In this document: positions 55,004-60,939 of the stretch, piece by piece
How the letters are laid out: every line of letters starts with the position of its first letter
Position numbering within the stretch: position 1 is the first letter of the stretch
Assembly (NCBI GenBank): GCA_963667465.2
Contig: CAXXDN010000001.1
Span: 896,001-960,000 of the forward strand
Direction: 5' to 3'
Source of the DNA: Dehalococcoidia bacterium
GTDB lineage: Bacteria; Chloroflexota; Dehalococcoidia; UBA2979
DNA: 64,000 nt
Notes under the pieces: model-generated
What the model was told of the DNA's origin: nothing
Databases searched by the model: none
Seen by the model: only the letters and a program-made list of their open reading frames with translations
Made by a program: the position numbers and the translations under genes

Positions 55004-56878
55004 CTACTCCTCGAGCCGCACGCCGTCGGAGTGCCAGCGCAGGTACTCGGCGCTCGCCCAGCCCTCGAGGCCGTCGTCCGTGCGGAGGTGCAGCCAGGGT
55101 TGCGGGTAGAGGACGAAGTCGTCCGTTTCGGCGACGGCCCCGTTCGGGAGGCAGGCGAGGGTCGGCGCGTCGAGCGAGGCCTTCTCGCGGAGGTTCAGGC
55201 ACGGATCGGCGACGACCTCGACCAGGAGCTGGTCGTCGAAGGGCGGCTGCTCGATTATTGGCGCGAGTGGCAGAGGCGGATACACGTTGAGACCTTCCTG
55301 CGAGTGGAAAAAGGTCGTTCGCACAAGCAGAGTGCCGCCGGTGGCGCCCAGCGCGGCGCGTTCCTGCCGAGCGAGGAACGGCTGCCAAGGAGGATCGGGG
55401 ATGGGCGCGCTGGGATCCCCGAAGGAGATGGATGCGAGCACATCCCCGGCCCGATTCACAACCTGCGGGGGGTAAAGGGAGAAGAAGCGGTCTCGGTCGT
55501 CCGGGGAAGGCCATCCAGGCGCCTGCTCCCATGTCCCCCGGAGCGTGGCGATTCGTGGGCCGCGGTGCGTGCCTACCACGATTCCGGAACTGCCGGCGAG
55601 CCACACGCCAGCCACGTCACCATGAACTCCGAACTCGGCGAGCCCGAATGAATAGACGCTCTTGACTCGCAGGATCTCCTCGCCCGTCGTTGCGTCGAAG
55701 ATCGACGAGATCCTGTCGTCGGCGAGCACGCTCGATGTCGCGGCAGCAAGCATGCGCCCGTCCGCAGAAATCCGCGGGAAGAGGCCTCCCCACGATCCAG
55801 GGATCGGACTCAGGCACCGTATCGTACTGTCGGACAGGAGCGTGCCCCTGAGGTCATAGCGAACCACGCGGCAGGTCACATTGCCGGTATCGGCGATGAA
55901 TGCAACGAGGTCGTCCAGGGGATCGACTTGATAGAGGATTTCCCCTGTCTTGTGAGCCGGGACCGTCTTCCACGGAAGTACCCACGAGTGGACCTCGGGG
56001 TTGGCCTCGTCCTCGAGGTTCACGAGGTGAAAGCGATCGCCCGGCTCACACTCGACGCACTCACGGACGAGGATGTAGCCGCCGCTGGGGCTGGTGAAGC
56101 GCTAGCCGGCCGGAAGATCGAGCTGCGCCACGGGCCGCAACTCGGCGTCCATCGCCACGAAAGCGCCGGAGCTCGCGAGGCGGAAGAGCAGCCGCTCGTC
56201 GGGTCCGGTTCCCCACCATAGATCGAACTCAATCCTGCTCCGATCCCACGTGTACGTGCGCCCGGTCTGCCGGTCGTGCAGGACTCCCTGGCCCGCCCAA
56301 CTCACGAAGCGATTGCTCGGCGAGGCATCGAGGTCGTCGGCGGCGTTCCGGGCTGCTTCGCGCTCCCTCTCCGGCAGGGCGGCGAGCGAGCGCACCCACG
56401 CCTCCACTTCGCCCGTCGCCACGTCGAGCAGGAACAGGCCAGGGTCCCACGGCGCCTCCTCGCCTGCCTCGTAGCGAGCGTGCGTGAGGCCGGCCGCCGC
56501 CAGCGCCTCGGCGGTGTTGACCTCGCGGATGCTGAGGTCCTCGGCGGTGATCAGCGGCGCCGGGGTTGCGGTCGGCGTGGGCGACGGAGTTGGCGAGGGC
56601 GTCACGGCTGGTGTCGGTGCGGGCGCGGGCGTTGTGGTTGGCGTGGGAGTGGCTGCCGGCGATGCGACGGTCGTCGGAGTTGGCGAGGGCGTCGTGGTGG
56701 GAGTCGGAGCTGGAGGTGCCTCGGGCGTGGGTGTCGGCGTCGCGGCGGGCGAGGCTGCCGCGGGCGGCGGGGGCTCCTCGGGCCCGCCGTCGCACGCCGC
56801 CAGACCGGCCGCGAGCGAGAGCGCGAGGACGGCCGCGAGCAGGGGTGGCAGCGAGCGTCGCGTGCGGTGTACGAGCAT
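55004..56878 (-). pseudogene. Lipoprotein with Pro/Thr linker and C-terminal SH3-like domain, interrupted by one in-frame TAG (56102-56104)
   Basis: LAAC lipobox; reading continues in frame PAG*RFTSPSGGYILV into the 55004-56023 ORF; LNLRE...GW.SAEYL SH3b pattern. Confidence 0.82.
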
Positions 56879-56983: not shown

Positions 56984-57001
56984 CCCCCTCACCCCCGCCC
57001 T
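56984..57001 (+). repeat. Left half of REP-like target interrupted by IS110
   Basis: CCCCCTCACCCCCGCCCT joins CTCCCCCGGGAGAGGGGGCCGGAGAGGGG (58492-58520) to rebuild a hairpin repeat. Confidence 0.8.
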
Positions 57002-57011
57002 AATGGGGTTC

Positions 57012-57201
57012 GACCGGACCCTGGAGCGATCTGGGAGACTGGTCTTGGACCGGCCGGCCGGTGAGCACTGCCCCTCCCCGAGACACTGCGATCTCCAGGG
57101 AGAGACCGTGCCCCGGCTGGTGCGTCCGGGTGGTCCACAGCACTCCTGGGGTGTCGTGCCCGAGAGCACTGGTCCATTAGGCCGTCGCAGGACCAGCCCG
57201 G
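57012..57201 (+). ncRNA. Predicted IS110 bridge RNA (5' hairpin, target-binding loop, donor-binding loop)
   Basis: Guides GCCCCTCCCC (57070-57079), GGGAGAG (57098-57104), CCTGGGGTGTC (57145-57155), CCATTAG (57174-57180) inside closed stems; transcript ends are inferred. Confidence 0.8.
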
Positions 57202-57244
57202 CAGGTCGCAAACAGCAGCACGAAGCGCAGGAAAGCGAGGCACG

Positions 57245-58468
57245 ATGACCCTCTACGTCGGTGACGACTGGTCCGAAGACCACCACGATGTCCAGCTCAT
57301 GAACGAGGCCGGCGAACGGCTCGCCGCCAGGCGGCTGCCCGAGGGCGTCGCGGGCGTCGCCGTGCTGCACGAACTGGTTGCCGAGCACGCCTCAGACCCG
57401 GGCGCGGTCGTGGTCGGCATCGAGACCGACCGCGGACCCTGGGTCACGGCCCTGCTCGCGGCCGGCTACCGCGTCTACGCGATCAACCCCCGCTCGGCGG
57501 CGCGCTACCGTGAGCGTCACCACCTGGGCGGCGCCAAGTCCGACGCCGCCGACGCGAAGCTGCTCGCCGACCTCGTGCGCACCGACCGCCACAACCACCG
57601 TCCGCTGGCCGGCGACAGCGACGAGGCTGCCGCGGTGCGCATCCTCGCCCGCGCCCACCAGCAGCTGATCTGGGACCGCGTGCGCCAGACCAACCGGCTG
57701 CGCAACGCCCTCAGGGAGTATTTCCCGGCTGCCCTGCAGGCCTTCCCCAGCCTCGCGCACGGCGACGCCCTGGGCGTGCTGGCGCGGGCGAGCGAGCCGC
57801 GCGAGGCGGCGCGCCTGAGCACGTCGAAGATCCGCTCGGCGCTGCGCCGCGGCGGACGTCAGCGCAACCTCGAGCGGCGCGCCGCCGCGGTGCGCGACGC
57901 GCTGCGCTCCCCGCAACTCGAGGCGCCGCCTGCCGTGAGCCGGGCGTTCGCCGCGAGCACCCGCGCGGCGGTCGCGCAGATCAGCGAGATCAACCGTCAG
58001 CTTACGGAGCTCGAGGCCGCGCTCACGAGCCATTTTGAGCAGCACCCGGACGCCGCAATCTACCGTTCCCTGCCCGGTCTCGGTGTCGTGCTCGGCGCCC
58101 GGGTGCTCGGCGAGTTCGGGGACGACCCCGAACGCTACGAGTCGGCGAAGTCCCGCAGGAACTACGCCGGCACCTCGCCGCTCACCGTAGCATCGGGCCG
58201 CAAGCGCAGCGTGCGCGCCCGCTTCGTGCGCAACCGCCGGCTCGCCGACGCCGTGGACCGCTGGGCGCTCTGCTCGCTGCAGGCGAGCCCCGGCTGCCAT
58301 GACTTCTACCACCGCCGCCGCGCCGCGGGCGACCTCCACCACCAGGCGCTGCGCGCTCTCGGCAACCGCCTCGTCGGCTACCTCCACGGCTGCCTGAAGG
58401 CACGTCGCCCCTACGACGAGGCCACCGCCTGGGCGCACCGCCACGACCGCGAACAGCTCGCCGCTTGA
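57245..58468 (+). CDS. IS110-family DEDD recombinase/transposase
   Basis: VGDDWS, GIET, INP, KSDAADA (RuvC-like DEDD); SLPGLG, YAGTSP...SG (C-terminal Tnp domain). Confidence 0.95.
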   Translation: MTLYVGDDWSEDHHDVQLMNEAGERLAARRLPEGVAGVAVLHELVAEHASDPGAVVVGIETDRGPWVTALLAAGYRVYAINPRSAARYRERHHLGGAKSDAADAKLLADLVRTDRHNHRPLAGDSDEAAAVRILARAHQQLIWDRVRQTNRLRNALREYFPAALQAFPSLAHGDALGVLARASEPREAARLSTSKIRSALRRGGRQRNLERRAAAVRDALRSPQLEAPPAVSRAFAASTRAAVAQISEINRQLTELEAALTSHFEQHPDAAIYRSLPGLGVVLGARVLGEFGDDPERYESAKSRRNYAGTSPLTVASGRKRSVRARFVRNRRLADAVDRWALCSLQASPGCHDFYHRRRAAGDLHHQALRALGNRLVGYLHGCLKARRPYDEATAWAHRHDREQLAA

Positions 58469-58641
58469 CGCCTTAGCACCCTGGGGTGTCTCTCCCCCGG
58501 GAGAGGGGGCCGGAGAGGGGAGGCGGCGGCCGGGTGCGGCGATGTGACTTCAGGAGCCGGTCGTGGGTCTGGCGCACGCGCAGCGCGTAGTATCGGAGCG
58601 CTGGCTGGCGGCGCGCGACGGACGTGGCGAGGAACGGCGAG

Positions 58642-60939
58642 ATGACGACAACCGAACGACCCCCGGTGAGCAGCGGCTATGCCGTCGTCGGCACGCGGCC
58701 GGTGCGCCACGACGGCTCGGAGAAGGTCACCGGCGAGGCCCGCTACGGAGCCGACATCCGGCTGCCCGGCATGCTCCACGGGAGAATCCTGAGGAGCCCG
58801 CACGCCCACGCGCGCATCAGGTCCATCGACACGAGCCGGGCGGAGGCGCTCCCCGGCGTGTTCGCCGTGATGACCTCGGCAGACGTCCCGATCATCGGCG
58901 ATCAGGCTCTCGACCTGGCGCTCGTTCGCGGAAACATGCGGTTGATGGCCGAGCACGTCATGGCCCACAGGACGGCCCTGTACAAGGGCCACGCGGTAGC
59001 GGCGGTTGCTGCGAATAGTCCCCACGTCGCCGAGGACGCCCTGGCGCTGATCGAGGTGGACTACGAGGTGCTCCCGGCGGTCCTTTCGCTGGCCGAGGCC
59101 ACGGCCGCCGGCGCGCCGATCATCCACGAGGACCTGACGACCTTCTTCAGGCTCGCGCGCTTCGCCCGGGGGGACGACACCGGGGTGCGCGGCAATGTCG
59201 CCTCCCACATCCAGCACAAGCTCGGCGATGTCGAGGAGGGCTTCCGGCAGGCCGATGTGGTCGTGGAGCGGGAGTTCTTCACGGAGACCGTCCACCAGGG
59301 CTACATCGAGCCGCACGCGGCCACGGCCACCTGGGCGCGTGACGGCCGCCTCACCGTCTATACCTGCACGCAGGGGGCCTTCCCGATCCGCGCGGCCACG
59401 GCCGCGATGTTGGACCTGCCCGAGTCGATGGTGAAGGTCGTGCCGACCGAGATCGGCGGTGGGTTCGGGGCCAAGCTCGTGGCGTACGTGGAGCCCGTCG
59501 CCGCGATCCTCTCCCGCAAGAGCGGCCGGCCCGTGCAGGTGGTGATGACCCGCAAGGACGTGTTCGAGGGCACCGGACCTGCCTCGGCGACCCAGGCGCG
59601 CACGAAGATCGGCGCGACCCGGGATGGCAGGATCACCGCCGCCCAGGTCACGCTGACCTTCGAGGCCGGCGCCTTCCCCGGCTCGGCCGTCGGCGGGGGC
59701 ACGCTCTGCGCCACCGGTCCCTACAACATCGAGAATCTCCTTGTCGACGGCTACGACGTGGTGGTCAACAAGAACAAGACGCAGGCCTACCGCGCGCCGG
59801 GACAGCCGCAGGGCGCCTTCGCCGTCGAACCCGTCATCGATGAGCTCGCGGAGCTGCTGGGCATCGACCCCCTCGAGTTCCGGCTCCTGAACGCCGCCAG
59901 ACAAGGCGACCGCATGCCCAACGGTGTTATGCACCTCCGCCTGGGCATCGAGGAGCTGGAAGCGGCGATGAAGGCCCACGACCACTACAACGCGCCGCTC
60001 GGCGGCCCCAACCGCGGGCGAGGCGTGGCCGTCGGCTTCCGCTGGCAGGGAGGTCAGAGCTCAGCGGCGACGATCCACGTGAACAGCGATGGCACGATCA
60101 ACCTCGTCACCGGCTCGGTGGACATCGGAGGCTCACGCACCGCCGTGGCGATGCAGGCCGCCGAGGTGCTGGGCCTGAGCGCCGAGGATGTGACGCCCAC
60201 GGTGGTCGACACCGACACGATCGCGCTCACCGGCGCCACCAGCGGCAGCCACACGGCCTTCGACACGGGCCTCGCGGCGATCGAGGCGGCGCAGGAAGTG
60301 ATCCGGCAACTGGGCACGCGGGCGGCGGCGATCTGGGAGGTCGACGAGCGAGACGTGACCTTCGAGGACGGCACGTTCAGCTGCGCCGGGAATCCGGCGC
60401 TGAAGTTGACGTTCAGGGAGCTGGCGGCCGAGTTGCCGGGCAGCGGCGGCCCGGTGACCTGCTCGGTCTCGGTCCCGACCACGGGCGTCGGCCCCGTCAT
60501 CGCGGGCAACATCGTGGACGTCGAGGTCGACCCTGCGACCGGCAAGGTGCAGATCCTGCGCTACAGCGCGTTCATGGACGTGGGCACGGCGGTGCATCCC
60601 AGCTACGTCGAGGGCCAGATCCAGGGCGGCACCGTGCAGGGTATCGGCTGGGCGCTGAACGAGGAGTATTGCTACGACGCCGAGGGGGCGATGCTGAACA
60701 GCAGCTTCCTCGACTACCGGATGCCGACCACGCTGGACATCCCGATGATCGATGCGGTCATGATCGAGGTGCCCAACCCCCAGCACCCGTTCGGCCTGCG
60801 CGGCGTCGGCGAAGCCTCGATCATCCCGCCGCTCGCCGCCGTCGCGAACGCGGTATCGAACGCCATCGGCGTGCGCATCAACCGGCTGCCGATCACCCCC
60901 GGCGCGGTCCTCGACGCGATTGAGTCGAAGGACGGCTAG
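58642..60939 (+). CDS. Xanthine dehydrogenase-family molybdopterin-binding large subunit
   Basis: DG.EKVTG.ARY, RSPHAHARI, HQGYIEP, IGGGFGAK, AYRAPG, EGQIQGG..QGIG, GVGE. Confidence 0.93.
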   Translation: MTTTERPPVSSGYAVVGTRPVRHDGSEKVTGEARYGADIRLPGMLHGRILRSPHAHARIRSIDTSRAEALPGVFAVMTSADVPIIGDQALDLALVRGNMRLMAEHVMAHRTALYKGHAVAAVAANSPHVAEDALALIEVDYEVLPAVLSLAEATAAGAPIIHEDLTTFFRLARFARGDDTGVRGNVASHIQHKLGDVEEGFRQADVVVEREFFTETVHQGYIEPHAATATWARDGRLTVYTCTQGAFPIRAATAAMLDLPESMVKVVPTEIGGGFGAKLVAYVEPVAAILSRKSGRPVQVVMTRKDVFEGTGPASATQARTKIGATRDGRITAAQVTLTFEAGAFPGSAVGGGTLCATGPYNIENLLVDGYDVVVNKNKTQAYRAPGQPQGAFAVEPVIDELAELLGIDPLEFRLLNAARQGDRMPNGVMHLRLGIEELEAAMKAHDHYNAPLGGPNRGRGVAVGFRWQGGQSSAATIHVNSDGTINLVTGSVDIGGSRTAVAMQAAEVLGLSAEDVTPTVVDTDTIALTGATSGSHTAFDTGLAAIEAAQEVIRQLGTRAAAIWEVDERDVTFEDGTFSCAGNPALKLTFRELAAELPGSGGPVTCSVSVPTTGVGPVIAGNIVDVEVDPATGKVQILRYSAFMDVGTAVHPSYVEGQIQGGTVQGIGWALNEEYCYDAEGAMLNSSFLDYRMPTTLDIPMIDAVMIEVPNPQHPFGLRGVGEASIIPPLAAVANAVSNAIGVRINRLPITPGAVLDAIESKDG

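What the first reader, a model, noticed from the sequence alone, without database searches (positions are those of the whole stretch)
57002..57244. IS110 left end reads as a complete bridge RNA with all four guides identifiable
Seen in sequence, donor side: joining the element ends gives ...CCTGGGGTGT-CT-AATGG. The left end contains CCTGGGGTGTC (57145-57155, an 11/11 match to 58480-58490) and CCATTAG (57174-57180, exact reverse complement of CTAATGG). These flank an inner stem GTGC/GCAC and are closed by CCGGG-TGGTCC (57126-57136) pairing with GGACCA-G-CCCGG (57190-57201). Seen, target side: an upstream loop carries CCCCTCCCC (57071-57079; 7/9 to the left flank CCCCCGCCC, one difference a possible U:G wobble) and GGGAGAG (57098-57104, exact reverse complement of the right flank CTCTCCC). 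These flank GAGA/TCTC and are closed by GCAC/GTGC. A 5' hairpin lies at 57012-57044. Established: IS110 recombinases such as IS621 use a bispecific bridge RNA with this loop order and a CT core. Inference: this is an intact RNA-guided recombinase orthologue from a probable Chloroflexota host, with an 11-nt left donor match and 7-nt right guides; I cannot tell whether this orthologue is already catalogued.
Basis: partly seen in the sequence, partly recalled or inferred. Interest (0 to 1): 0.88.

Follow-up and report, generated by a model that had tools for sequence, protein, structure and literature searches.

The report
IS110 element with bridge RNA
This is an intact, multi-copy IS110 jumping gene whose upstream end encodes a two-loop guide ("bridge") RNA that matches both its own ends and its insertion site, an ordinary member of a system described in 2024.

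Summary
Window 57002-58491 is a 1490-bp IS110-group element. It has 10 copies in this 2.97-Mb genome, 9 of them identical. It encodes a 407-aa DEDD/Ser recombinase, which matches NCBIfam "IS110 family RNA-guided transposase" and whose best fold matches are IS621 and ISCro4.

The 243-nt left end has IS621-type bridge-RNA architecture:
- a 5' stem-loop;
- a target-binding loop (LTG 57071-79, RTG 57098-104, handshake 57105-06);
- a donor-binding loop (LDG 57145-55, RDG 57174-80, handshake 57181-82).

On this sequence alone only the donor matches beat chance. The LTG 7/9 match does not: 64% of shuffles reach it. The decisive evidence is comparative.
- In 69 loci with 19 guide types, target guides track their own flanks. 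LT is 5.1/7 against 2.7/7 for other types' flanks, and RT is 4.7/5 against 2.0/5; 0 of 20,000 permutations reached the observed value.
- 92% of structure cells pair, and 15 of 45 pairs show compensatory change.
- The donor-loop handshake base follows target position 7 in 70 of 72 loci.

The target is a REP-like hairpin repeat. No RNA data exist. Verdict: a real, probably active bridge-RNA system and a new member of a known kind, of modest interest.

The parts
57002..58491 (+). IS110-group insertion sequence, 1490 bp, counted with one copy of the CT core (the other copy is at 57000-57001)
   Evidence: The genome holds 10 full copies of 1490 bp: 9 are identical and 1 has one substitution. Each has different flanks.
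57012..57044 (+). 5' stem-loop of the bridge RNA (57012-17 pairs with 57039-44)
   Evidence: Helix 1: 6 pairs, 91.3% of cells paired, 2 pairs with changes on both sides.
57053..57121 (+). Target-binding loop domain. The outer stem is 57053-61/57113-21 plus 57065-68/57108-11. The inner hairpin is 57080-85/57089-95.
   Evidence: RNAalifold recovers this domain unaided. In one search, helix 2 has 14 pairs at 98.3% paired with 4 compensatory, and helix 3 has 6 pairs at 92.9% paired with 4 compensatory.
57071..57079 (+). Left target guide (LTG), CCCCUCCCC. It has the same sense as the left flank ending in the core.
   Evidence: The register comes from relatives, for example the L018 guide GGCTCCCT equals its flank. 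It matches 6-8 of 9 bases at the 10 own sites. Own-type against other-type flank match is 5.1 against 2.7 of 7.
57098..57104 (+). Right target guide (RTG), GGGAGAG, complementary to core + right flank CTCTCCC
   Evidence: 9 of 10 own copies have right flank CTCCC. In relatives, own-type against other-type match is 4.7 against 2.0 of 5.
57105..57106 (+). Target-loop handshake guide AC, complementary to donor positions 6-7 (GT before the core)
   Evidence: AC with donor GT in 65 of 69 loci and AU in 4. Its placement follows Hiraizumi et al..
57126..57201 (+). Donor-binding loop domain. The outer stem is 57126-36/57190-201, the middle stem 57140-43/57184-88, and the inner hairpin 57156-59/57166-69.
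   Evidence: helices 4-6: 78.9%, 100% and 100% of cells paired. A-U changes to G-C in the middle stem in 3 of 21 sequences.
57145..57155 (+). Left donor guide (LDG), CCUGGGGUGUC. It is identical to the last 10 nt of the right end plus the first core base.
   Evidence: 11/11 match to 58480-90; 10 of 20,000 shuffles reach this. A G-to-A change in guide and right end together occurs in L088, L089 and L093.
57174..57180 (+). Right donor guide (RDG), CCAUUAG, complementary to core + left-end start CTAATGG
   Evidence: 7/7 match; 11 of 20,000 shuffles reach this. CATTAG is invariant in the 21 aligned representatives.
57181..57182 (+). Donor-loop handshake guide GC. The G is complementary to target position 7 (the C before the core).
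   Evidence: The first base pairs with target position 7 in 70 of 72 loci. The 3 guide types with C here have G at target position 7.
57245..58468 (+). Recombinase gene, 407 aa (DEDD RuvC-like domain plus Tnp domain with catalytic Ser)
   Evidence: PF01548 at 6.9e-38 and PF02371 at 7.1e-11. NF033542 scores 185.8 bits against a cut-off of 140. The profile aligns D8, D100, D103 and S317 with the catalytic residues of IS621. Best fold matches are IS621 and ISCro4.
58465..58470 (+). TTGACG, candidate -35 box overlapping the stop codon. After circularisation it would lie 18 nt upstream of TCTAAT, which is formed by 58489-91 + 57002-04.
   Evidence: TTGAC lies 26-28 nt from the right end in 70 of 71 related loci with a recognisable right end. 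No promoter-like site is found in the integrated form. Function is inferred.
58480..58491 (+). Right end: left-donor sequence CCTGGGGTGT plus core CT
56985..57001 (+). Left half of the interrupted REP-like target (CCCCTCACCCCCGCC + core CT)
   Evidence: The same motif flanks 8 of 10 own copies. The genome holds 42 uninterrupted sites matching CCCCNCCCTCTCCC.
58492..58515 (+). Right half of the REP-like target, with the hairpin arm CTCCC...GGGAGAGGG followed by GCCGGA
   Evidence: 123 such hairpins in the genome.

Best explanation
Window 57002-58491 is a functional IS110-group insertion sequence. Its 243-nt left end is transcribed on the + strand into a bridge RNA of roughly 190 nt (about 57012-57201), and the 407-aa DEDD/Ser recombinase uses that RNA.

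The RNA has a 5' stem-loop and two stem-closed internal loops.
- The first loop reads the insertion site. [quoted passage not shown] This site lies in the 5' arm of a REP-like hairpin repeat.
- The second loop reads the joined ends of the excised circle. [quoted passage not shown] - Two-base handshake guides 3' of RTG and RDG pair with the other DNA after top-strand exchange.
- Recombination occurs at the CT core, without target duplication beyond CT.

Shown here: the anatomy, copy number, target motif, guide-flank covariation, helix covariation, protein family, and alignment of the catalytic residues.

Inferred from IS621: transcription, RNA-protein binding, the circular intermediate, the order of strand exchange, and a promoter rebuilt across the right-end/left-end joint (-35 TTGACG at 58465-70, -10 TCTAAT across the joint).
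For: 1. Element and activity. The 2.97-Mb genome holds 10 full copies, 9 identical and 1 with a single substitution in the linker at element position 122. All are in different sites and all are bounded by CT.

2. Protein.
- Pfam DEDD_Tnp_IS110 and Transposase_20 match.
- NCBIfam 'IS110 family RNA-guided transposase' scores above its cut-off.
- The profile hits IS621 transposase 8wt6_A at E = 1.7e-11. It aligns D8, D100, D103 and S317 to chain D13, D104, D107 and S243, which are the paper's D11, D102, D105 and S241 with a +2 offset.
- These residues, and E60, are invariant in 37 homologues.
- The best Foldseek matches are ISCro4 and IS621, with TM 0.69-0.75 on the target.

3. Target. 9 of 10 right flanks begin CTCCC. 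The left flanks end CCCCNCCCT or a close variant.

4. Guide-flank covariation. 69 loci fall into 19 guide types.
- The LTG matches its own left flank at 5.11 of 7, against 2.72 of 7 for other types' flanks.
- The RTG matches its own right flank at 4.69 of 5, against 2.03 of 5.
- 0 of 20,000 permutations reach the observed sum.
- The 11 distinct RTG sequences include CTTCGTG, CTACAAC, CTTTCTT, CTAGACG and CTACCGC, and each was found beside its own elements.

5. Handshake guides. The first donor-loop handshake base pairs with target position 7 in 70 of 72 loci. It switches to C in the 3 guide types whose target has G there.

6. Donor side. The 11/11 and 7/7 matches are reached by 10 and 11 of 20,000 shuffles. 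A GGGG-to-GGGA change is shared by LDG and right end in L088, L089 and L093.

7. Structure. On 21 representatives, 45 pairs give 92.3% of cells paired against 28-46% when partners are slid. 15 pairs show changes on both sides. 0 of 500 shuffles reach the observed values on 4 of the 5 measures; the fifth (further pair types) is not significant. Many G-U pairs fit only the + strand.

8. Guide polarity and loop order agree with Durrant et al. and Hiraizumi et al..
Against: - The single-sequence fold is no better than shuffles (z = -0.48), and the minimum-free-energy structure differs from the proposed one.
- The LTG match of this copy (7/9) is reached by 64% of shuffles, and the RTG match by 9%.
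- The LTG has U where 40 of 42 empty strict sites and 5 of 10 occupied sites have G, so most insertions tolerated a U-C mismatch.
- The second core base is not matched by LTG (CC) or LDG (CG). In IS621 all four guides are said to include the core.
- The donor guides are nearly invariant across relatives, so donor-side covariation rests on one G-to-A change and a partly concordant position.
- Some loci miss. L061 and L062 match 1 of 7 in LT and L073 matches 2 of 7. L018, L019 and L071 match 3 of 5 in RT.
- No Rfam family matched the left end at E <= 10.
- The candidate -10 box TCTAAT has C at position 2. The TTGAC conservation could partly reflect the overlapping stop codon.
- No circle or tandem junction is present in the genome or in the 97 loci.
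Confidence: 0.9

Rival explanations
1. A classical protein-only IS110. On this view the left end is merely the 5' UTR and promoter region of the transposase. The internal matches to the ends are DNA-level subterminal repeats bound by the protein, and target choice is made by the protein recognising the REP hairpin.
For: The donor-side motifs are almost invariant among relatives, as protein-binding sites would be. The target is a structured repeat. The single-sequence fold is not significant.
Against: The target-side segments change together with flanks that are not part of the element, across 19 guide types (0 of 20,000 permutations). The protein stays 67-92% identical over the same loci. 15 helix pairs show compensatory changes, and the G-U pairs are strand-specific. 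The handshake base covaries with target position 7.
Confidence: 0.04
2. The bridge-RNA anatomy is real, but the element is no longer mobile in this host. The ten copies would then be a past burst, spread by recombination between REP repeats.
For: No circle or tandem junction is present in the assembly or in the loci. No promoter-like site is found in the integrated form. The LTG mismatches the commonest site variant.
Against: 9 of 10 copies are identical over 1490 bp, the reading frame is intact and the catalytic residues are conserved. The copies sit in ten different flanks with precise CT boundaries. Strict sites with a non-G base at the LTG's U position are occupied more often than G sites: 3 of 5 against 4 of 44, Fisher p = 0.017, a post hoc test on small numbers.
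Confidence: 0.05
3. The left-end transcript is mainly a cis-regulatory leader that controls recombinase translation, for example by occluding the ribosome-binding site. Its complementarity to the ends and flanks would be incidental.
For: The structured region lies directly upstream of the ribosome-binding site and ATG (57202-57247). No terminator-like site separates them.
Against: The conserved helices end at 57201, and the stretch from 57202 to the ATG is the least conserved part of the alignment. Incidental complementarity would not track 11 different right flanks.
Confidence: 0.01

Closest known systems
IS621 bridge recombinase and bridge RNA of Escherichia coli (Durrant et al. 2024, PMC11208160; Hiraizumi et al. 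2024, PMC11208158; PDB 8wt6-8wt9)
   Same: - A DEDD/Ser recombinase. The profile hits it at E = 1.7e-11 and the catalytic residues align. The fold TM score is 0.71-0.75 on the target.
- A long left end and a short right end, with a CT core.
- The RNA is encoded in the left end, in the order 5' stem-loop, target loop, donor loop.
- The 5' guides pair with the bottom strand and the 3' guides with the top strand.
- A 2-nt handshake guide lies 3' of RTG and of RDG.
- A candidate promoter is split across the right-end/left-end joint.
- Domain lengths are similar: about 110 nt up to the end of the target loop and 76 nt for the donor loop. The paper's constructs use 104 + 73.
   Different: - Only 18-20% protein identity, and 407 aa against the 328-residue IS621 chain of 8wt6_A.
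- A host with 70.7% G+C.
- The LDG match is 11 nt, and RTG and RDG are 7 contiguous nt each.
- LTG and LDG match only the first core base: LTG ends CC, LDG ends CG.
- The donor loop has an extra 4-bp middle stem with a bulged C.
- No experimental data.
ISCro4 bridge recombinase (PDB 9t56). I saw only the search listing of the preprint 10.1101/2025.05.14.653916, which names IS622.
   Same: It is the top Foldseek match: E = 1.6e-11, TM 0.69 on the target, 19% identity.
   Different: It is a distant sequence. I did not compare the RNAs.
ISPpu10 of Pseudomonas putida (bioRxiv 10.64898/2026.03.19.712850; abstract and outline read)
   Same: An IS110 element whose insertions all map to copies of one conserved intergenic repeat carrying a GC-rich stem-loop. 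Here too the target is a repeated hairpin element.
   Different: In ISPpu10 the stem-loop is described as a 5' extension of the target and is shown experimentally to gate specificity. Here the core lies inside the 5' arm of the hairpin, and the role of the hairpin is untested.
IS1111-group elements with the guide RNA in the right end (described in Durrant et al.; the name 'seekRNA' appears only in the listing, in the abstract start of PMC13604230, and its primary paper is recalled, not seen)
   Same: The same recombinase family and the same principle of an element-encoded RNA that reads target and donor.
   Different: Those elements have a short left end, a long right end and long subterminal inverted repeats. 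Here the left end is 243 nt and the right end is 23 nt after the stop codon, so this is the IS110 group.

Membership tests
IS110 family insertion sequence, IS110 group | [quoted passage not shown] | tested here: met
   PF01548 at 6.9e-38 covers residues 5-161. PF02371 at 7.1e-11 covers residues 273-356. NF033542 scores 185.8 bits against a cut-off of 140.
IS110 family insertion sequence, IS110 group | Catalytic D, E, D, D and the serine nucleophile | tested here: met
   The A2 profile against IS621 8wt6_A aligns D8, D100, D103 and S317 to chain D13, D104, D107 and S243. HMMER places E60 two columns away from the IS621 glutamate, in a gapped stretch; the GIE and CIE motifs match by eye. All five residues are invariant in 37 homologues.
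IS110 family insertion sequence, IS110 group | Long left end, short right end, no terminal inverted repeats, no target duplication beyond a 2-bp core | tested here: met
   The left end is 243 nt (57002-57244). The right end is 23 nt after the stop codon (58469-58491). CT lies at both boundaries of all 10 copies. Uninterrupted sites read ...CCCT-CTCCC with a single CT at the insertion point.
IS110 family insertion sequence, IS110 group | Recombinase fold like solved bridge recombinases | tested here: met
   The AlphaFold2 model has mean pLDDT 82.2. The ten best Foldseek PDB matches are IS621 and ISCro4 chains.
Bridge RNA (IS621 type) | Encoded in the left end on the recombinase strand, with a 5' stem-loop and then two stem-closed internal loops | tested here: met
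   45 pairs, 92.3% of cells paired against 28-46% when slid, and 15 pairs with changes on both sides. RNAalifold finds the target-loop domain unaided. G-U pairs fit the + strand.
Bridge RNA (IS621 type) | The first loop carries LTG (bottom strand, left target) and RTG (top strand, right target), and these covary with the insertion site | tested here: met
   69 loci and 19 guide types. Own-type against other-type match is 5.11 against 2.72 of 7 and 4.69 against 2.03 of 5. 0 of 20,000 permutations reach the observed sum. The 10 own sites are.
Bridge RNA (IS621 type) | The second loop carries LDG and RDG complementary to the joined right-end/left-end donor | tested here: met
   11/11 and 7/7 matches, reached by 10 and 11 of 20,000 shuffles. 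Covariation is limited to one G-to-A change in 3 loci, because the donor is conserved.
Bridge RNA (IS621 type) | [quoted passage not shown] | tested here: inconclusive
   RTG (..AG) and RDG (..AG) pair with both core bases. LTG ends CC and LDG ends CG, so only the first core base is matched. Among the 19 guide types the LTG ends in CT in 13, CC in 4 and CA in 2. Durrant's methods select 'CT core guides', which implies natural exceptions exist. I treat this as a variable property, not a defining one.
Bridge RNA (IS621 type) | Handshake guides 3' of RTG and RDG that pair with positions 6-7 of the non-cognate DNA | tested here: met
   The target-loop AC pairs with donor GT in 65 of 69 loci. The first donor-loop handshake base pairs with target position 7 in 70 of 72 loci and switches from G to C together with the target in 3 guide types.
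Bridge RNA (IS621 type) | A sigma-70-type promoter rebuilt across the right-end/left-end joint of the circle | tested here: inconclusive
   TTGACG, an 18-nt spacer, then TCTAAT across the joint: 5/6 + 5/6, but with C at position 2 of the -10 box. TTGAC lies at 26-28 nt from the end in 70 of 71 loci, but it overlaps the stop codon. No promoter-like site is found in the integrated form.
Bridge RNA (IS621 type) | The RNA is expressed, bound by the recombinase, and required for recombination | not testable with these tools
   No RNA run was listed for this sequence. Bench work is needed.
Bridge RNA (IS621 type) | Sequence and structure homology of the RNA scaffold to the IS621 bridge RNA itself | not tested
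No Rfam family matched 57002-57244 at E <= 10, and I do not know whether Rfam 15 holds a bridge-RNA model.

The most novel reading that the evidence does not exclude
This clade, carried by sponge-associated Dehalococcoidia and some Actinomycetota, may be a natural reprogramming series. One nearly invariant scaffold and donor loop carries at least 19 different target loops.

Its recognition rules may also differ from IS621 in three ways. The left guides would read only the first core base. An internal LTG mismatch would be tolerated. The REP hairpin, whose 3' arm has the same sequence as the RTG, would add a structural layer of target recognition like the one reported for ISPpu10.
Probability: 0.25. 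Interest if true: 0.45.

Novelty: new member of a known kind. Interest (0 to 1): 0.3.

Why it matters
This is a clean natural example of a bridge-RNA system in an uncultured, high-G+C lineage far from IS621 (18-20% protein identity). It offers ten verified insertion sites in one genome. Close relatives keep the scaffold and donor loop while the target loop has been rewritten many times, and each version can be checked against its real flanks.

That makes it a useful comparative data set for three questions:
- guide length;
- mismatch tolerance (LTG position 5, and the second core base);
- the handshake rule.

It is also a candidate orthologue for anyone screening bridge recombinases. It does not change the current understanding of the system.

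Tried and rejected
- **Rfam.** No family matched the left end at E <= 10. The only hit above its gathering score is Ms_AS-4, antisense inside the gene.
- **Single-sequence fold.** Not significant, and not the proposed structure, so I did not use it.
- **phmmer of the protein against PDB sequences.** No relevant hit, so I replaced it with a profile search.
- **The search for homologous proteins.** The 120 listed hits are all >=70% identical. They served for a profile but not for reaching distant families, and few carry names ('IS110 family transposase').
- **Alternative LTG registers.** I rejected it because in relatives the 9 nt before the inner stem end in the core CT.
- **RNAalifold alternative pairings.** It paired 57046-48 with 57126-28 and made pairs inside the donor loop (UGGG with CCAU). 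I preferred the donor-loop outer stem 57126-36/57190-201, which has compensatory changes. The intra-loop pairs reflect similarity between the two donor halves.
- **Sequencing runs.** No RNA holder was listed. The holders are sponge metagenomes and coded organisms, all kept as contigs.
- **Read laying.**
  - It showed contigs in X2 and X5 that run from the left flank into the element at 57012-57021. X2 and X3 also have contigs leaving it at 58471.
  - The 'skip' joints have sides of only 23-24 nt and carry other letters between the sides. I read them as other REP copies, not as an empty allele of this locus.
  - No joint of the 'goes back' kind was listed.
- **Circle or tandem junction.** Searched by script; 0 hits in the genome and 0 in the 97 loci.
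- **Literature search.** A search for IS110 together with Chloroflexota, Dehalococcoidia or sponge symbiont listed 12 of 1,248 papers, and none of the 12 contained IS110. This is no proof that the element is undescribed.
- **Not available.** I could not consult ISfinder or the supplementary tables of Durrant et al. (supplements are closed). They may list this orthologue.
Full report
**What is there.** The window holds a 1490-bp element at 57002-58491, bounded by the dinucleotide CT (57000-01 and 58490-91). Its single reading frame, 57245-58468, encodes 407 aa. The evidence for what that protein is:
- It carries Pfam DEDD_Tnp_IS110 (6.9e-38) and Transposase_20 (7.1e-11).
- It scores 185.8 bits against NCBIfam NF033542, 'IS110 family RNA-guided transposase', whose cut-off is 140.
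- phmmer of the single protein against PDB sequences found nothing relevant.
- A profile of 37 homologues (A2) hits the IS621 transposase 8wt6_A at E = 1.7e-11.
- That profile aligns D8, D100, D103 and S317 with chain D13, D104, D107 and S243. These are the catalytic D11, D102, D105 and S241 of Hiraizumi et al., if the chain numbering is offset by two.
- HMMER places the glutamate two columns off in a gapped stretch, although GIE and CIE line up by eye.
- All five residues are invariant in the 37 homologues.
- An AlphaFold2 model (mean pLDDT 82.2; the loop 309-327 around S317 has low confidence) has IS621 and ISCro4 chains as its ten best PDB matches. TM is 0.68-0.75 on the target at 18-20% identity.

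**Checking the observation.** I tested chance with 20,000 dinucleotide-preserving shuffles of the left end:
- the 11-nt match to the right end recurred 10 times;
- the 7-nt match to the left-end start recurred 11 times;
- the 7-nt right-target match recurred 1,777 times;
- a 7-of-9 left-target match recurred 12,844 times.

The minimum-free-energy fold is no better than shuffles (z = -0.48) and differs from the proposed structure. So the donor side stands on this sequence alone, while the target side and the fold needed outside evidence.

**Copies in the same genome.** The genome is 2.97 Mb in 2 contigs with 70.7% G+C. It holds 10 full copies, 9 identical and 1 with one substitution at element position 122, which lies in the linker between the two loop domains. 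A partial copy at the end of contig 2 has the same right flank as the copy at the start of contig 1, so it is the same copy split by the assembly.
- All ten copies are bounded by CT.
- Nine right flanks begin CTCCC and one begins AACCC.
- The left flanks end in CCCCNCCCT or close variants: N is G in five, T in one, A in one and C in one, and two are more divergent.
- Rejoining the flanks gives ...CCCCTCACCCCNGCC-CT-CTCCC(n)GGGAGAGGG(n)GCCGGA.... This is a REP-like hairpin repeat with the core inside the 5' arm.
- The genome has 123 such hairpins and 42 uninterrupted sites matching CCCCNCCCTCTCCC, with N = G in 40 and C in 2.
- The RTG (GGGAGAG) matches the right target fully. The LTG (CCCCUCCCC) matches 6-8 of 9.
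- Strict sites with a non-G base at the position of the LTG's U are occupied in 3 of 5 cases, against 4 of 44 for G sites. Fisher p = 0.017, a post hoc test on small numbers.

**Relatives.** A scan of one genome per species found 243 stretches encoding relatives and kept the best 80. Most are in MAGs titled Dehalococcoidia bacterium (75-92% aa identity). Some are in Actinomycetota, Smaragdicoccus and a Mycobacterium MAG (67-71%).
- I dropped 7 loci that were short or cut, and aligned 73 left ends with the window's.
- The scaffold and the donor loop are highly conserved. The two target-guide segments are the variable parts.
- Relatives fix the register. The 9 nt immediately 5' of the inner stem end on the core; for example, L018 has GGCTCCCT in both guide and flank.
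- Its two mismatches are U opposite bottom-strand C and C opposite bottom-strand A, given the polarity stated by Durrant et al..

**Covariation of guides with flanks.** After dropping 5 more rows, 69 loci fell into 19 guide types. The dropped rows were L020 and L026 (left end not alignable) and L076, L090 and L096 (no recognisable right end).
- LTG matched its own left flank at 5.11 of 7 non-core positions, against 2.72 for other types' flanks.
- RTG matched its own right flank at 4.69 of 5, against 2.03.
- None of 20,000 permutations of flank sets among guide types reached the observed sum (observed 186.2; permuted mean 95.2, maximum 149.7).
- The 11 distinct RTGs include CTTCGTG, CTTCATT, CTACAAC, CTTTCTT, CTACCCT, CTACGTC, CTAGGCC, CTACCGC, CTAGCTT and CTAGACG. 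Each lies beside matching flanks.
- Misses: L061 and L062 (LT 1 of 7; the pattern looks like a one-base shift), L073 (LT 2 of 7), and L018, L019 and L071 (RT 3 of 5).
- The flank AACCC in L018 and L019 recurs at one of the window genome's own copies. It corresponds to a variant REP.

**Handshake guides.** These are the two bases 3' of RTG and RDG, as defined by Hiraizumi et al..
- The target-loop handshake is AC in 65 of 69 loci and AU in 4. It is complementary to the conserved donor GT.
- The first base of the donor-loop handshake pairs with target position 7 in 70 of 72 loci. It is G opposite C in 18 guide types and C opposite G in the 3 types whose target has G there.

**Donor side.** CATTAG and TGGGGTGTC are almost invariant. 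The only clear joint change is GGGG to GGGA in both LDG and right end in L088, L089 and L093. The base 10 nt before the core agrees in some loci and not in others.

**Structure.** On 21 representatives (A1), RNAalifold recovers the target-loop domain unaided. I then wrote a structure of 45 pairs: 5' stem-loop, target-loop outer and inner stems, and donor-loop outer, middle and inner stems. Its results:
- 92.3% of cells are paired, against 28-46% when the 3' partners are slid by 1-3 columns.
- 15 pairs carry changes on both sides.
- 0 of 500 shuffles reach the observed pairing, the compensatory counts or the covariation score.
- One measure, further pair types, is not significant (93 of 500).
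- The frequent G-U pairs would be C-A on the other strand, so the + strand is the RNA strand.

**Differences from IS621.**
- RTG and RDG pair with both core bases. LTG ends CC, and LDG ends CG, where the G is the first base of the inner stem. So the left guides match only the first core base.
- Among the 19 guide types the LTG ends CT in 13, CC in 4 and CA in 2.
- The LDG match is 11 nt in this copy and 9-11 nt in relatives.

**Expression (inferred).**
- In the integrated form no promoter-like or terminator-like site is found between 56850 and 58650.
- Joining right end to left end would place TTGACG (58465-70, overlapping the stop codon) 18 nt upstream of TCTAAT. This matches Durrant et al.'s description of a promoter rebuilt in the circle.
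- TTGAC lies 26-28 nt from the right end in 70 of 71 loci.
- The -10 box has C at its second position, and coding constraint may contribute to the TTGAC conservation.
- No circle junction is present in the assembly or in the loci.

**Other samples.** The element occurs in sponge metagenomes and coded organisms from 9 studies. No RNA run was listed. Contigs of X2 and X5 run from this locus's left flank into the element, and loose ends in X2 reproduce the left flanks of other copies. The same insertions therefore exist in other samples. The short 'skip' joints look like other REP copies.

**Comparison and verdict.**
- The element meets the tested defining features of the IS110 group and of an IS621-type bridge RNA.
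- Untested are expression, binding, activity, and direct alignment to the IS621 RNA.
- Bridge RNAs were described in 2024 and are predicted in 85.7% of IS110-group elements. REP elements are known targets of the family. A stem-loop-bearing repeat target has been studied in ISPpu10.
- This is therefore a new member of a known kind.

Noticed in passing
window 56985-57001 + 58492-58515; own genome, for example C1:2754, C1:5047, C1:120721: A REP-like repeat family, ...CCCCTCACCCCNGCCCTCTCCC(n)GGGAGAGGG(n)GCCGGA.... The 2.97-Mb genome holds 123 hairpins of this type and 42 uninterrupted strict target sites. Some repeats are in tandem 80 bp apart (C1:120721 and C1:120801).
   Followed up: partly
window 58069-58150, minus strand: Rfam Ms_AS-4 (RF02464, 'Actinobacteria sRNA') matches at 65.1 bits, above its gathering score of 50, antisense inside the recombinase gene. 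The family may simply model a conserved stretch of IS110 transposase genes.
   Followed up: no
own genome, C2 end (about 1903831-1904564) and C1:3267-4756: The partial copy at the end of contig 2 has the same right flank as the full copy at the start of contig 1. The two contigs probably join through this element.
   Followed up: partly
own genome C2:1583213-1584702; loci L018, L019, L020: Some insertions have right flank AACCC instead of CTCCC (3 of 5 RTG matches). They appear to lie at a variant repeat reading ...CCCT-AACCCTC....
   Followed up: partly
L020 and L026 (upstream of position 1500): Two relatives have an intact-looking gene and right end, but their left ends do not align with the family. 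These left ends have been replaced or rearranged and would lack the target loop.
   Followed up: no
window 58108 and 58138: Contigs from runs X2, X3 and X5 read T instead of C at these two positions inside the recombinase gene. These are strain or copy variants.
   Followed up: no
window 57028-58099 against the flanks, run X2: The contig word depth of the element interior is about 49 times that of the flanking contig in X2, and about 6-11 times in X3 and X5. The tool warns that depth is not copy number. The difference may reflect more copies or other carriers in that sample.
   Followed up: no
window 58624-60939 (+) and 56102-56878 (-): The element sits in the intergenic space between two genes. 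One encodes a molybdopterin-binding aldehyde oxidase/xanthine dehydrogenase family protein (PF02738, PF20256, PF01315). The other, divergently oriented, encodes a Pro/Thr/Ala-rich 258-aa protein with no Pfam match.
   Followed up: partly
own genome L013-L015 (C2:27011, C1:460189, C1:223757): Three loci give identical weak matches (71% identity over about 125 nt) to the middle of the gene. They probably belong to a second, distinct IS110-family element in the same genome.
   Followed up: no
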